Shown here: positions 27,832 to 29,278 of the stretch, piece by piece | How the letters are laid out: every line of letters starts with the position of its first letter | How positions within the stretch are numbered: position 1 is the stretch's first letter | Origin: Candidatus Thorarchaeota archaeon | GTDB lineage: Archaea; Asgardarchaeota; Thorarchaeia; Thorarchaeales; Thorarchaeaceae | Assembly (NCBI GenBank): GCA_048882485.1 | Contig: JBHLRP010000003.1 | Span: 64,001 to 128,000 of the forward strand | Direction of reading: 5' to 3' | Length of the DNA stretch: 64,000 nucleotides | The notes under the pieces: model-generated | The model's database searches: none | The model's input: the letters and a program-made list of their open reading frames with translations, nothing else | Told to the model about the DNA's origin: nothing | Position numbers and translations under genes: made by a program

Positions 27832-27954
27832 ATGGGAAAGGAAGGAGAACTATACGTCTGTGACATCTGTCAGCAAGTTGTACGAGTAGTGAAATATGGG
27901 GCTGGAACCCTGGTTTGTTGCGGTCAACCAATGCGACTGTTTGAGGACGACTAG
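27832..27954 (+). CDS. Stand-alone desulforedoxin (40 aa; not in ORF track)
   Basis: MGKEGELYVCDICQQVVRVVKYGAGTLVCCGQPMRLFEDD*: CxxC...CCGQPM signature; GGAG upstream. Confidence 0.9.
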   Translation: MGKEGELYVCDICQQVVRVVKYGAGTLVCCGQPMRLFEDD

Positions 27955-28003
27955 AACGAAGGTTGACCTGCAAATCTTGTCAGGCAGAAGAGTGCTGCTT
28001 GAT

Positions 28004-28014
28004 AATCTTTATAT
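28004..28014 (+). promoter_or_regulatory. TATA-like element AATCTTTATAT upstream of rpo5 copy 1
   Basis: Identical 11-mer recurs at a similar distance upstream of copy 2. Confidence 0.55.
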
Positions 28015-28060
28015 GACAAGCTGAATCGGCGACTGCTAGACCTTCTTTGGGTGTGTTTCC

Positions 28061-28615
28061 ATGATAGAGTTTCCAAGCAATGTGATAAAGACTAGGAACC
28101 TTCTCAACCTTCGAGCCTATGCAGTTGAGGACTTGCTCGAATATGAGAATCGTTTTGAGATGCATCCGATTAAGAAATTAGAAGACGGGACAATCAAGTC
28201 CGTTGTATGGATTCTGAAAGAGCCTCGCGTTGTAGGGATTGCGCTAGTCAAAGATTTGGTGAAAAAGATGGAAGAGGTTCAGGCACAGGAGGGCATCCTA
28301 GTAGGTGGGTCTAGATTCACACCAGCCGCAAAGAAGCATGCCATGGACATGAGGGTTGAACTTGTCTTGGGTAACTATGCATCATTTGATCTGTTCTCAC
28401 ACGAGCTCGTTCCTTCGCATACCATTGCTGATGAAGATGAAGTGTCTCTAGTCATGGAGCATTATGGTATAGCCCGCGACCAAATTCCTCGAATCCTAAG
28501 AAACGACCCAGCTGTGAAAGTTCTAGGTGCCAAACCTGGGCAAGTAGTCAGAATCGAACGAGATAGTGATACTGCTGGAGGAGTCTATTATTACAGACTA
28601 GTAGTCACCTCCTAG
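28061..28615 (+). CDS. rpo5: RNA polymerase subunit Rpo5/H with N-terminal Rpb5-jaw-like domain, copy 1
   Basis: C-terminal FDLFSHELVPSH...QIPRI-x2-NDP...GAKPGQVVRIERDSDTAG-x2-YYYRLV; about 105-aa N-terminal domain (GILVG-x2-FTPAAKK). Confidence 0.9.
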   Translation: MIEFPSNVIKTRNLLNLRAYAVEDLLEYENRFEMHPIKKLEDGTIKSVVWILKEPRVVGIALVKDLVKKMEEVQAQEGILVGGSRFTPAAKKHAMDMRVELVLGNYASFDLFSHELVPSHTIADEDEVSLVMEHYGIARDQIPRILRNDPAVKVLGAKPGQVVRIERDSDTAGGVYYYRLVVTS

Positions 28616-28666
28616 AATCAAATTTTCTTTCAAATACTGCTTCCTTTGCAAAAACCCCTAGTTGGG

Positions 28667-28677
28667 AATCTTTATAT
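28667..28677 (+). promoter_or_regulatory. TATA-like element AATCTTTATAT upstream of rpo5 copy 2
   Basis: Identical to 28004-28014. Confidence 0.55.
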
Positions 28678-28717
28678 CTCGCGCCTAGAATTGCGTTGTA
28701 ATTTAGGGTGTTTTCTC

Positions 28718-29278
28718 GTGGTTGAATTCCCGACTTTAGTCATGAAAACCAGAGGTCTCCTTACTCTTAGAGGCTACCTTGTAGAAGAATTGCTGGAATA
28801 CGAGGACCGGTATGTGATGCATCCTACAAGGGAGTCTGAAGATATCACCGTTAAATCAGTTGTATGGATTTTCAAGGTGCCAAAAGTAGTAGGAGTGGCT
28901 GTTGTTAGGGAACTAGTGAAAGCGATGGAGGAAGCTCAAGCACAGGAGGGTATGCTTGTAGGGGGCTCTAGAGTCACACCAGCGTCAAAGAAGCTCGCTC
29001 GCGAAATGCGTGTGGAGCTTGTGGAGGGAGGCTATTCATCATTTGACCTCTTTGGCCACAGTCTTGTTCCGAAACATGTGGTTGCAGATGAGGAAGAGGT
29101 TCAACTTGTTCTTGACCACTACGGCATCAGAAGATCACAGCTGCCTCGAATCTATCGGACTGATGCCGCCGTCAAGGTACTGGGTGCAAAAACAGGCCAG
29201 GTGATTCGAATCCAACGTGAGAGCGATACTGCAGGGCTCTCCTATTACTATCGTCTCATTGTTGACCCAGGACGATGA
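28718..29278 (+). CDS. rpo5: RNA polymerase subunit Rpo5/H with N-terminal Rpb5-jaw-like domain, copy 2
   Basis: HSLVPKH...QLPRIYRTD...GAKTGQVIRIQRESDTAG-x-SYYYRLI; GTG start at 28718 inferred by alignment with copy 1. Confidence 0.9.
   Translation: MVEFPTLVMKTRGLLTLRGYLVEELLEYEDRYVMHPTRESEDITVKSVVWIFKVPKVVGVAVVRELVKAMEEAQAQEGMLVGGSRVTPASKKLAREMRVELVEGGYSSFDLFGHSLVPKHVVADEEEVQLVLDHYGIRRSQLPRIYRTDAAVKVLGAKTGQVIRIQRESDTAGLSYYYRLIVDPGR

What the first reader, a model, noticed from the sequence alone, without database searches (positions are those of the whole stretch)
28004..29278. Tandem duplicated two-domain (eukaryote-like) Rpb5/Rpo5 genes, each with its own conserved promoter
Seen: two colinear paralogs of about 185 aa, each with an N-terminal domain of about 105 aa fused to the Rpo5 core. 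Each is preceded by the identical motif AATCTTTATAT and a GGGTG element. Neither is followed by rpo2/rpo1. Known: typical archaeal Rpo5 is about 75-85 aa, lacks the jaw domain of eukaryotic Rpb5 and heads the rpoH-B-A operon; some eukaryotes use polymerase-specific Rpb5 paralogs. Inference: this organism may assemble RNA polymerase isoforms with alternative Rpb5 subunits, a possible parallel to polymerase specialisation.
Basis: partly seen in the sequence, partly recalled or inferred. Interest (0 to 1): 0.75.

Follow-up and report, generated by a model that had tools for sequence, protein, structure and literature searches.

The report
Two tandem full-length Rpb5-type genes
This Asgard (Thor-type) archaeon has two neighbouring, separately promoted genes for the RNA polymerase subunit Rpo5, and both carry the extra front "jaw" domain that the papers I could read call eukaryote-only. 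That part of our polymerases therefore probably arose in archaea, and this lineage may build its single polymerase in two versions.

Summary
Gene A (28061-28615, 184 aa) and gene B (28718-29278, 186 aa, GTG start) are 68% identical. They are the only Rpo5 genes found in this 90.5%-complete Thorarchaeota genome and lie away from rpoB/rpoA.

**Domains.** Each has an Rpo5/Rpb5 C-terminal core plus a ~105-aa N-terminal domain. That domain is a catalytically dead restriction-nuclease fold. It is homologous to the N-terminal "jaw" module of eukaryotic Rpb5:
- phmmer to human RPABC1 runs into the jaw
- N-domain-only profile comparison gives E 3.8e-12
- an N-domain profile finds only Rpb5 chains in the PDB
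- both models match full-length Rpb5 (TM up to 0.82)

**Duplication.** It predates the genus, because upstream and downstream copies form separate, well-supported clades. Both copies are under strong purifying selection (dN/dS about 0.06-0.08). Both keep the Rpo1-contact arginines. Each keeps its own conserved BRE/TATA-like element and ribosome-binding site.

**Distribution.** Pairs occur in five genera of this family and almost nowhere else among 332 genomes of the phylum.

**Open question.** Whether the two give functionally different polymerases is untested; no RNA data were available.

This scan has met the two-domain form before on other DNA (at least 56 genomes), including a tandem pair in another Thorarchaeote.

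The parts
27999..28014 (+). BRE/TATA-like promoter element of gene A (TTGATAATCTTTATAT), TATA about 53 nt before the ATG
   Evidence: The exact 11-mer occurs only twice in the window. The 16-nt degenerate pattern occurs 5 times in the 3.96-Mb genome, two of them here. The TTTATA core lies about 53 nt before the start codon in all 10 upstream copies of the genus, while the flanking bases vary.
28049..28053 (+). GGGTG Shine-Dalgarno-like site of gene A, 7 nt before the ATG
   Evidence: It is less conserved among upstream copies of the genus (GGGTG, GGATG, GGAAGG and others).
28061..28615 (+). rpo5-1 (gene A), 184 aa. N domain about residues 1-105 (28061-28375); Rpo5 core about residues 106-184.
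   Evidence: PF01191 and NF007129 above cut-off. AF2 model with pLDDT 91.6. Full-length match to Rpb5 chains, TM 0.73-0.82. phmmer to human RPABC1, query 41-181 = chain 66-209, E 1e-20.
28616..28717 (+). 102-nt spacer between A and B, with a short T-rich stretch (TTTTCTTTC from 28623) and the promoter of B
   Evidence: A terminator function is inferred only.
28662..28677 (+). BRE/TATA-like promoter element of gene B (TTGGGAATCTTTATAT), TATA about 47 nt before the GTG
   Evidence: GGGAATCTTTATA is conserved at -47/-48 in all 11 downstream copies of the genus.
28706..28710 (+). GGGTG Shine-Dalgarno-like site of gene B, 7 nt before the GTG
   Evidence: GGGTG is present before every downstream copy in the genus, all of which start with GTG or TTG.
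28718..29278 (+). rpo5-2 (gene B), 186 aa, with the same two-domain architecture
   Evidence: AF2 model built from an Asgard-only alignment, pLDDT 87.1. Top PDB matches are again full-length Rpb5, TM 0.69-0.72.

Best explanation
Both genes encode functional, full-length Rpb5-type subunits (Rpo5/RpoH) of the organism's single RNA polymerase.

The C-terminal core docks on the largest subunit (Rpo1). It uses the same two arginines that eukaryotic Rpb5 uses: A/B R167 and R179, equivalent to yeast R200 and R212. The N-terminal ~105 residues are an inactivated PD-(D/E)XK (Mrr-like) fold that shares ancestry with the eukaryotic Rpb5 N module. By analogy with Pol II, this domain would form the lower jaw lining the downstream-DNA channel and offer a surface for factors.

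The pair arose by a tandem duplication of gene plus promoter that is older than the genus. Both copies have been kept by purifying selection, and each is transcribed from its own BRE/TATA element. They have a conserved asymmetry in translation start signals: the upstream copy has ATG with a variable SD, the downstream copy has GTG or TTG with an invariant GGGTG.

Because the polymerase has one Rpo5 site and one rpoA/rpoB set, the two proteins are most likely alternative occupants of that site. That would give two polymerase versions, or condition-dependent subunit supply.

Shown: identity, homology, fold, age of the duplication, selection, promoter conservation. Inferred: incorporation into the polymerase, jaw position, alternative use.
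For: - Only two PF01191 matches in the genome, both here.
- RpoH equivalog above cut-off for both.
- Sequence homology of the N domain to the eukaryotic jaw: phmmer to RPABC1 runs from residue 41. hhalign of 22 Asgard N domains against 5 Pfam-verified eukaryotic N domains gives Prob 97.6, E 3.8e-12 over 86 columns. The N-domain profile hits only Rpb5 chains in the PDB, E 4.6e-7 to 4e-3, and no nuclease.
- Shared motifs: LxxRGY (R18 invariant), VG (G59) and TPxAK (T87).
- Fold: both models match full-length Rpb5 of Pol I, II and III, while short archaeal Rpo5 chains cover only the C half.
- R167 and R179 are invariant in all 21 genus copies and correspond to yeast R200 and R212, which form salt bridges to Rpb1 (PMC1802627).
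- Genus tree: upstream copies form one clade and downstream copies another (100/99 each), each repeating the same sub-clades.
- dN/dS is 0.078 for upstream copies and 0.058 for downstream copies. Synonymous sites between paralogs are saturated.
- Promoter and SD are conserved in 10 and 11 genomes.
Against: - No expression or protein data: no RNA run is listed for this DNA.
- No complex prediction was possible, so incorporation of either copy into the polymerase is inferred.
- Divergence between the types is evenly spread (11 N-domain and 10 C-domain type-specific sites), mostly conservative, with no charge shift. Nothing positively indicates different biochemical roles.
- About half of the family's genomes manage with one copy.
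- The Pfam model of the eukaryotic N module (PF03871) does not match.
- The archaeal domain is ~35 residues shorter than the eukaryotic one and lacks its helical insert.
Confidence: 0.6

Rival explanations
1. The two copies are biochemically equivalent Rpo5 subunits. The duplication is kept for dosage or for differently regulated supply of the same function (for example growth phase or stress), not for distinct polymerase properties.
For: - Both keep all core contact residues, and 78 of ~184 positions are invariant across both types.
- Type-specific changes are mostly conservative (R/K, K/R, D/E, I/L) and not concentrated in one domain.
- There is no net-charge difference.
- The differences that are conserved lie in expression signals: separate promoters, and ATG versus GTG/TTG with a strong SD.
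- Many relatives have a single copy.
Against: - The two types have stayed distinct since before the genus diversified, with no sign of gene conversion (separate clades).
- There are 21 positions with non-overlapping residue sets, some next to the Rpo1-contact arginine (position 166, next to R167).
- Pure redundancy is rarely stable over times in which synonymous sites saturate.
Confidence: 0.3
2. One paralog has left the polymerase. It acts as a free jaw-domain protein, for example an assembly factor, a decoy or a regulator that competes for Rpo1 or for transcription factors.
For: - The polymerase has a single Rpo5 site and the genome a single rpoA/rpoB set.
- Eukaryotic Rpb5 is reported to bind several non-polymerase partners through its N module, as reviewed in PMC13257274.
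Against: - Both types retain the Rpo1-binding arginines and the whole C-domain core under equally strong constraint (C-domain dN/dS 0.08 and 0.045).
- Neither stem branch is markedly longer (0.23 against 0.20).
Confidence: 0.08
3. The N-terminal domain is an active Mrr-type restriction nuclease fused by chance to RpoH, unrelated to the eukaryotic jaw.
For: Weak Pfam hits to Mrr_cat (22.4 and 30.5 bits against a cut-off of 21) and to NA-iREase1.
Against: - The Mrr_cat match starts at profile position 49/59. By my recollection of that profile (not checked here), this is after the catalytic Asp.
- No acidic or lysine column is conserved in the N domain across 22 to 44 homologues; only R18, G59 and T87 are conserved.
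- Verified eukaryotic Rpb5 proteins give the same weak Mrr_cat and iREase hits.
- The N-domain profile finds Rpb5 and no nuclease in the PDB.
- Nucleases appear only at rank 50 of the fold searches.
Confidence: 0.02

Closest known systems
Eukaryotic Rpb5 / RPABC1 / POLR2E (Pfam PF03871 + PF01191; e.g. PDB 1dzf, 8uhd_E, 7vba_E), shared by Pol I, II and III
   Same: The same two-domain order: a dead PD-(D/E)XK fold followed by the Rpb5 core. There is detectable sequence homology in both domains. The motifs LxxRGY, VG and TPxAK are shared, as are the Rpb1-contact arginines. The full-length fold matches with TM up to 0.82.
   Different: The N domain is ~105 aa rather than ~140 aa. It lacks the ~25-residue helical insert after the first strand and has a shorter first helix. 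The PF03871 model does not match. The protein serves a single polymerase. Here it is encoded twice in tandem.
Classical archaeal Rpo5/RpoH (75-85 aa; e.g. PDB 8cro_H, 4qiw_H, 7ok0_H), first gene of the rpoH-B-A operon
   Same: The C-terminal core is orthologous: NF007129 equivalog above cut-off, 40-55% identity, rmsd 1.1-1.8 A.
   Different: Those proteins lack the N domain and cover only about 38% of the model. Here the genes are not in the rpo operon and there are two of them.
Polymerase-specific Rpb5 paralogs of eukaryotes (plant NRPB5/NRPD5 and Pol V NRPE5: PDB 7eu0_E, 8hyj_E, 8hil_E). Trypanosomatid RPB5z is cited from my own knowledge only.
   Same: Paralogous full-length Rpb5 subunits are retained side by side. 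This is a precedent for alternative Rpb5 subunits defining polymerase forms. The plant chains are among the hits.
   Different: In eukaryotes each paralog serves a polymerase with its own catalytic subunits. Here there is only one rpoA/rpoB set, so any isoforms would differ in Rpo5 alone. The duplications are independent.
Mrr_cat (PF04471) and NA-iREase1 (PF22722) restriction-endonuclease-fold domains
   Same: The same basic fold, with marginal profile matches.
   Different: No conserved catalytic residues. The nearest solved relatives by sequence are Rpb5 chains, not nucleases.

Membership tests
Rpo5/RpoH/Rpb5 core (PF01191, NCBIfam NF007129) | Profile match above the curated cut-off over the whole C-terminal domain | tested here: met
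   PF01191: 89.1 and 90.0 bits (cut-off 23.5), profile positions 2-73 of 73. NF007129: 94.1 and 92.3 bits (cut-off 83).
Rpo5/RpoH/Rpb5 core (PF01191, NCBIfam NF007129) | Arginines that form salt bridges to the largest subunit (yeast R200, R212) | tested here: met
   R167 and R179 are invariant in all 21 copies of the genus and in the 41-row Asgard alignment. The correspondence uses the offset in the 1dzf alignment. Their role is described in PMC1802627.
Rpo5/RpoH/Rpb5 core (PF01191, NCBIfam NF007129) | Acts as the genome's Rpo5: no other copy elsewhere | tested here: met
   Only these two matches were found in the 3.96-Mb, 90.5%-complete assembly, and none lies upstream of rpoB. The assembly is incomplete, so a third copy cannot be strictly excluded.
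Rpo5/RpoH/Rpb5 core (PF01191, NCBIfam NF007129) | Physical presence in the RNA polymerase | not testable with these tools
   No complex prediction, proteomics or RNA data were available.
Full-length eukaryote-type Rpb5 (PF03871 N module + PF01191) | Match to the Pfam model of the N module (PF03871) | tested here: not met
   No hit at E <= 1 on the proteins or at E <= 10 on the genome. In eukaryotes the model covers residues ~5-94, mostly the part that is shortened in the archaeal form.
Full-length eukaryote-type Rpb5 (PF03871 N module + PF01191) | Sequence homology of the N domain to the eukaryotic N module, independent of the C domain | tested here: met
   hhalign Prob 97.6, E 3.8e-12 over 86 columns. 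The N-domain profile finds 11 distinct Rpb5 sequences in the PDB, best E 4.6e-7, and no other family below E 0.5.
Full-length eukaryote-type Rpb5 (PF03871 N module + PF01191) | Same fold and domain order over the full length | tested here: met
   Foldseek E 3.6e-15 and TM 0.82 to 8uhd_E for A. TM 0.69-0.72 for B, modelled without eukaryotic sequences in the alignment. For B the relative domain orientation is less certain (pTM 0.58).
Full-length eukaryote-type Rpb5 (PF03871 N module + PF01191) | Long first helix and helical insert of the eukaryotic module (~140 aa) | tested here: not met
   In the joint alignment the eukaryotic rows carry ~25 extra residues after the RGY strand and a longer N-terminus. 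The archaeal domain is ~105 aa.
Active Mrr-type PD-(D/E)XK nuclease | Conserved catalytic D ... (D/E)xK residues | tested here: not met
   Only R18, G59 and T87 are conserved in the N domain. The position expected for (D/E)xK reads W-I-L/F-K in this genus and is not conserved in other lineages. The Mrr_cat match omits the first 48-58 profile positions.
Polymerase-specific Rpb5 paralogs (as in plant Pol IV/V) | Two or more paralogs kept under purifying selection | tested here: met
   dN/dS is 0.078 and 0.058 within the two types, which form separate clades across 10 genomes.
Polymerase-specific Rpb5 paralogs (as in plant Pol IV/V) | Several polymerases with distinct catalytic subunits for the paralogs to serve | tested here: not met
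   There is one PF00562 (Rpo2) match and one PF00623 (Rpo1) match, adjacent on contig C65.
Polymerase-specific Rpb5 paralogs (as in plant Pol IV/V) | Differential incorporation or expression | not testable with these tools
   No RNA holder is listed for this DNA.

The most novel reading that the evidence does not exclude
A prokaryote diversifies its single RNA polymerase by swapping a jaw-bearing Rpb5-type subunit. The two Rpo5 paralogs would give two polymerase forms that differ at the downstream-DNA jaw and in factor contacts, possibly pairing with particular members of this genome's eight TFB and two TBP paralogs. That would be an archaeal forerunner of the way eukaryotes specialise polymerases through subunit paralogy. 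It would also show that the Rpb5 jaw, like Rpb8, predates eukaryotes.
Probability: 0.3. Interest if true: 0.8.

Novelty: new variant of a known kind. Interest (0 to 1): 0.62.

Why it matters
Papers on Rpb5 state that its N-terminal module is found only in eukaryotes and is, with Rpb8, one of the two typically eukaryotic features shared by all three nuclear polymerases (PMC1802627). A survey of the nuclease superfamily lists PF03871 as Eukaryota only (PMC3424549). Among the papers I could search, none describes a two-domain Rpo5 in archaea.

Clear homology in Asgard archaea, and apparently in Bathyarchaeia, moves the origin of the polymerase lower jaw before eukaryogenesis. It also offers a simpler version of the domain for study.

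The tandem pair adds a second point: long-term retention of two alternative Rpo5 subunits in an organism with one polymerase. Together with eight TFB and two TBP genes, this makes combinatorial polymerase and factor usage in an Asgard archaeon a concrete, testable question.

Tried and rejected
- **RNA evidence.** No RNA holder is listed for this DNA. Read laying was not used because only DNA contigs were on offer.
- **PF03871.** No match on the proteins or the genome.
- **One duplication or several in the family.** The trees leave the five genera with pairs in a polytomy. Rooting on the only close outgroup is unreliable because its branch is 3.25 long. The AU test does not reject 'all upstream copies form one clade' (p 0.364), which shows nothing either way.
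- **Which archaeal lineage is sister to eukaryotic Rpb5.** The tree only separates a eukaryote-type group from the archaeal group (99/97). Five short rows that I had assumed to be archaeal fell with the eukaryotes. I therefore repeated the profile comparison with genome-derived Asgard rows only.
- **Stand-alone N domain in Asgard genomes with short Rpo5.** None at E <= 0.01 in five genomes. The same profile finds both domains in the window's own genome.
- **Is the promoter element a regulon signal or the general promoter consensus?** No. The 16-nt degenerate pattern occurs 5 times in the genome, and the other three sites precede unrelated or no ORFs.
- **Charge or pI difference between the two types.** None consistent.
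- **The 210-aa TTG-start reading of gene B.** Rejected on alignment, SD position and the TATA-like element lying inside it.
- **Misassembly as the origin of the tandem.** Rejected. The same arrangement is present in 9 other genomes of the genus and in 4 further genera.
Full report
**What is there**

The + strand holds two adjacent ORFs. Gene A runs from 28061 to 28615 (ATG, 184 aa). Gene B ends at 29278.

The ORF listing starts B at TTG 28646. I place the start at GTG 28718 (186 aa) for three reasons:
- Residue 1 then aligns with residue 1 of A.
- GGGTG sits 7 nt upstream, as it does for A.
- The TATA-like element at 28667-28677 would otherwise lie inside the ORF.

Every downstream copy in related genomes starts at the equivalent GTG or TTG. 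A and B are 68% identical over 182 residues without a gap.

**Identity of the C-terminal half**

Both proteins match Pfam RNA_pol_Rpb5_C over the whole profile (E about 1e-25, residues 110-181). Both match the NCBIfam equivalog for RNA polymerase subunit H above its cut-off.

These are the only two Rpb5_C matches in the genome, a 3.96-Mb, 157-contig assembly that is 90.5% complete and 5.8% contaminated. Names given by sources to close homologues place it in Thorarchaeota.

rpoB and rpoA are single-copy and adjacent on another contig. The ~510 nt between that contig's end and the apparent start of rpoB contain no Rpo5 frame. So the organism's Rpo5 function must come from these genes, outside the classical rpoH-B-A arrangement described for other archaea (PMC10833476).

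**Identity of the N-terminal half**

Pfam gives only marginal hits, to Mrr_cat and to an 'inactive restriction endonuclease' family. The model of the eukaryotic Rpb5 N module, PF03871, does not match. Four independent lines nevertheless show that the domain is the counterpart of the eukaryotic module.

1. A plain phmmer search of the PDB aligns gene A residues 41-181 with residues 66-209 of mammalian RPABC1 (E 1e-20). The alignment runs some 65 residues into the jaw.
2. I compared a profile of 22 N domains taken only from Asgard genomes with five eukaryotic N domains that I had verified as PF03871-positive. This gave HHalign probability 97.6% and E 3.8e-12 over 86 columns.
3. The same Asgard N-domain profile, searched alone against all PDB sequences, finds eleven distinct Rpb5 sequences (E 4.6e-7 to 4e-3). 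Nothing else scores below E 0.5, and no nuclease appears.
4. The structure models agree.
   - Gene A models with pLDDT 91.6, and its best PDB matches are full-length Rpb5 chains of Pol II, I and III (E 3.6e-15, TM up to 0.82, ~200 aligned columns).
   - Classical archaeal Rpo5 chains cover only the C half.
   - That alignment contained eukaryotic rows, so I modelled gene B from Asgard sequences only.
   - The result was pLDDT 87.1, with the same top hits at TM 0.69-0.72. The relative orientation of the two domains was less certain (pTM 0.58).

Shared motifs are visible in the joint alignment: LxxRGY with an invariant Arg, the VG turn before helix 2, and TPxAK. Verified eukaryotic Rpb5 proteins give the same weak Mrr_cat and iREase hits, in line with the known nuclease-like fold of the Rpb5 N module (PMC3424549).

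The archaeal domain is shorter, ~105 aa against ~140 aa. It lacks the helical insert and part of the first helix. PF03871 covers mostly that region, which probably explains its silence.

**Not an active nuclease**

Across 22 to 44 homologues the only conserved N-domain columns are R18, G59 and T87. No acidic or lysine column that could form a D...(D/E)xK site is conserved.

**Contact residues**

Yeast R200 and R212 form salt bridges to Rpb1 and matter in vivo (PMC1802627). By the alignment offset they correspond to R167 and R179. Both are invariant in all 21 copies of the genus and in the 41-row Asgard alignment. Neither paralog has lost them.

**The duplication**

In the window's genus, 8 of the 9 genomes at least 80% complete carry the pair. 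One more genome shows only a downstream-type copy, sitting at a contig start.

In the protein tree the upstream copies form one clade and the downstream copies another (100/99 support each). Each clade repeats the same three sub-clades, so the duplication predates the genus and there has been no homogenisation since.

| Comparison | Median dN/dS | Range | Other |
|---|---|---|---|
| Upstream copies | 0.078 | 0.047-0.159 | |
| Downstream copies | 0.058 | 0.022-0.102 | |
| Between paralogs | not computable | | pS about 0.83 (saturated), dN 0.28 |

Constraint is similar on both domains. Seven sites are fixed differently between the types and 21 have non-overlapping residue sets, 11 in the N domain and 10 in the C domain. 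Several in the C domain (140, 142, 146, 166, 174) lie near the Rpo1-contact arginines in sequence. Changes are mostly conservative and net charge does not differ consistently.

I surveyed 332 genomes of the phylum that are at least 80% complete:
- By my count from that table, two or more copies occur in 33 of 65 genomes of this family that have a match. They lie in five genera.
- Only 3 of about 258 genomes outside the family have two copies.

Pairs from four further genera show the same layout. Whether all pairs stem from one event is unresolved (p-AU 0.364).

**Expression signals**

Extended to TTG-R-N-AA-N-N-Y-TTATA, it occurs five times in the whole genome, about the number chance predicts apart from these two sites. 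It is therefore not the general promoter consensus and not a regulon mark.

Its conservation across the genus is as follows:
- All 10 upstream copies have an AAT(C/G)TTTATAT core (TTGATAATCTTTATAT in seven of the ten) about 53 nt before the ATG.
- All 11 downstream copies have GGGAATCTTTATA about 47 nt before the start.
- The surrounding bases vary in both cases.
- Single-copy relatives carry a similar element.

I read this as a BRE/TATA promoter that was duplicated with the gene and maintained for each copy. This is an inference from the archaeal promoter consensus; no transcript ends are available.

A conserved asymmetry exists. Upstream copies use ATG with a variable SD. Downstream copies use GTG or TTG with an invariant GGGTG.

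**Wider distribution**

Most families of the phylum have a long open frame (180-245 aa) around the Rpb5_C match. The largest sampled family (118 genomes) and a few others have short frames (81-125 aa). I found no stand-alone N domain in five such genomes.

Source names place long forms in Hodarchaeales and in Bathyarchaeia. In Bathyarchaeia some records annotate only the last 81 residues.

This scan had already reported the two-domain form on other DNA (64 notes in at least 56 genomes), including a tandem pair in another Thorarchaeote. My tests here agree with those notes.

**Literature**

Zaros et al. state that the N-terminal module 'is only found in eukaryotes' (PMC1802627). Steczkiewicz et al. 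list PF03871 as Eukaryota only (PMC3424549). A 2026 review of archaeal small polymerase subunits models Thor and Bathy Rpo5 but, in the passages my term searches returned, does not describe a long form (PMC13257274). Searches combining Rpb5, Rpo5, RpoH or RPABC1 with Asgard names found nothing further. The library is not complete, so an earlier description cannot be excluded.

**How it most likely works**

Shown:
- two intact, constrained, separately promoted genes for a full-length Rpb5-type protein
- homology of both domains to Rpb5
- a dead nuclease site
- a duplication older than the genus

Inferred:
- The C domain docks on Rpo1 as in all solved polymerases.
- The N domain forms a lower jaw at the downstream-DNA channel as in Pol II (PMC1802627).
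- With one Rpo5 site and one rpoA/rpoB set, the two proteins alternate in the enzyme.

The genome also has eight two-repeat TFB genes, two TBP genes and one long Rpo6. The eukaryotic N module is reported to contact TFIIB among other partners (PMC13257274). Jaw-factor pairing is therefore a reasonable but untested idea. The main rival is that the copies are equivalent and differ only in regulation.

**Verdict**

The 'eukaryote-like two-domain Rpb5' reading is supported. The 'polymerase isoforms' reading is plausible but untested. I class it as a new variant of a known kind.

Noticed in passing
window 27832-27954 (+): A 40-aa ORF directly upstream of the rpo5-1 promoter matches the desulforedoxin-type N-terminal domain of desulfoferrodoxin (PF06397, E 5e-14). 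It is a stand-alone mini rubredoxin-like protein.
   Followed up: partly
L038:1957-3339 (-) (genome G039, family f14); also proteins P0150 and P0163: In another Asgard family the only Rpb5_C match sits at the end of a 436-481-aa frame that holds two or three successive N-domain-like (Mrr_cat/iREase) repeats. The jaw domain is multiplied within one gene rather than the gene being duplicated.
   Followed up: partly
Genomes of family f9 (e.g. L037 from G032) and f3, f8, f13, f15: The largest sampled family of the phylum (118 genomes) and a few small ones have short Rpo5 frames (81-125 aa). No separate N-domain gene was found in five of them, so the jaw is not universal in Asgard archaea.
   Followed up: partly
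Protein cluster of P0149 (Bathyarchaeia): The same 182-aa two-domain protein is recorded in some NCBI records as an 81-aa or 72-aa RpoH. Annotation seems to start at an internal Met and hide the N domain.
   Followed up: no
Genome G141 (family f24), C1:150104 and C1:254160; genomes G315 and G323 (genus g5): One non-Thor genome has two long Rpo5 genes 104 kb apart rather than in tandem. Two genomes of genus g5 show three Rpb5_C matches.
   Followed up: no
Protein P0156 (561 aa): This Rpo5-like protein has an N domain and a Rpb5_C domain interrupted by a stretch matching the Cpn60/TCP-1 chaperonin family. It could be an insertion or a chimeric gene call.
   Followed up: no
G000 contigs C1, C11, C26, C74, C133 (TFB); C49, C64 (TBP); C3:165947-166048 (Rpo6): The genome carries eight two-repeat TFB genes, several of them adjacent (two on C1 and three on C26). 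It also has two TBP genes and a single Rpo6 match inside a 236-aa open frame, which is long for Rpo6.
   Followed up: no
All Rpo5 pairs in genera g1, g3, g5, g9, g23 (loci L001, L012, L016, L017, L019, L020, L022, L025-L030, L039-L042): The start-codon asymmetry is conserved across genera. The upstream copy starts with ATG (GTG in g9 only). The downstream copy always starts with GTG or TTG behind a strong GGTG site.
   Followed up: partly
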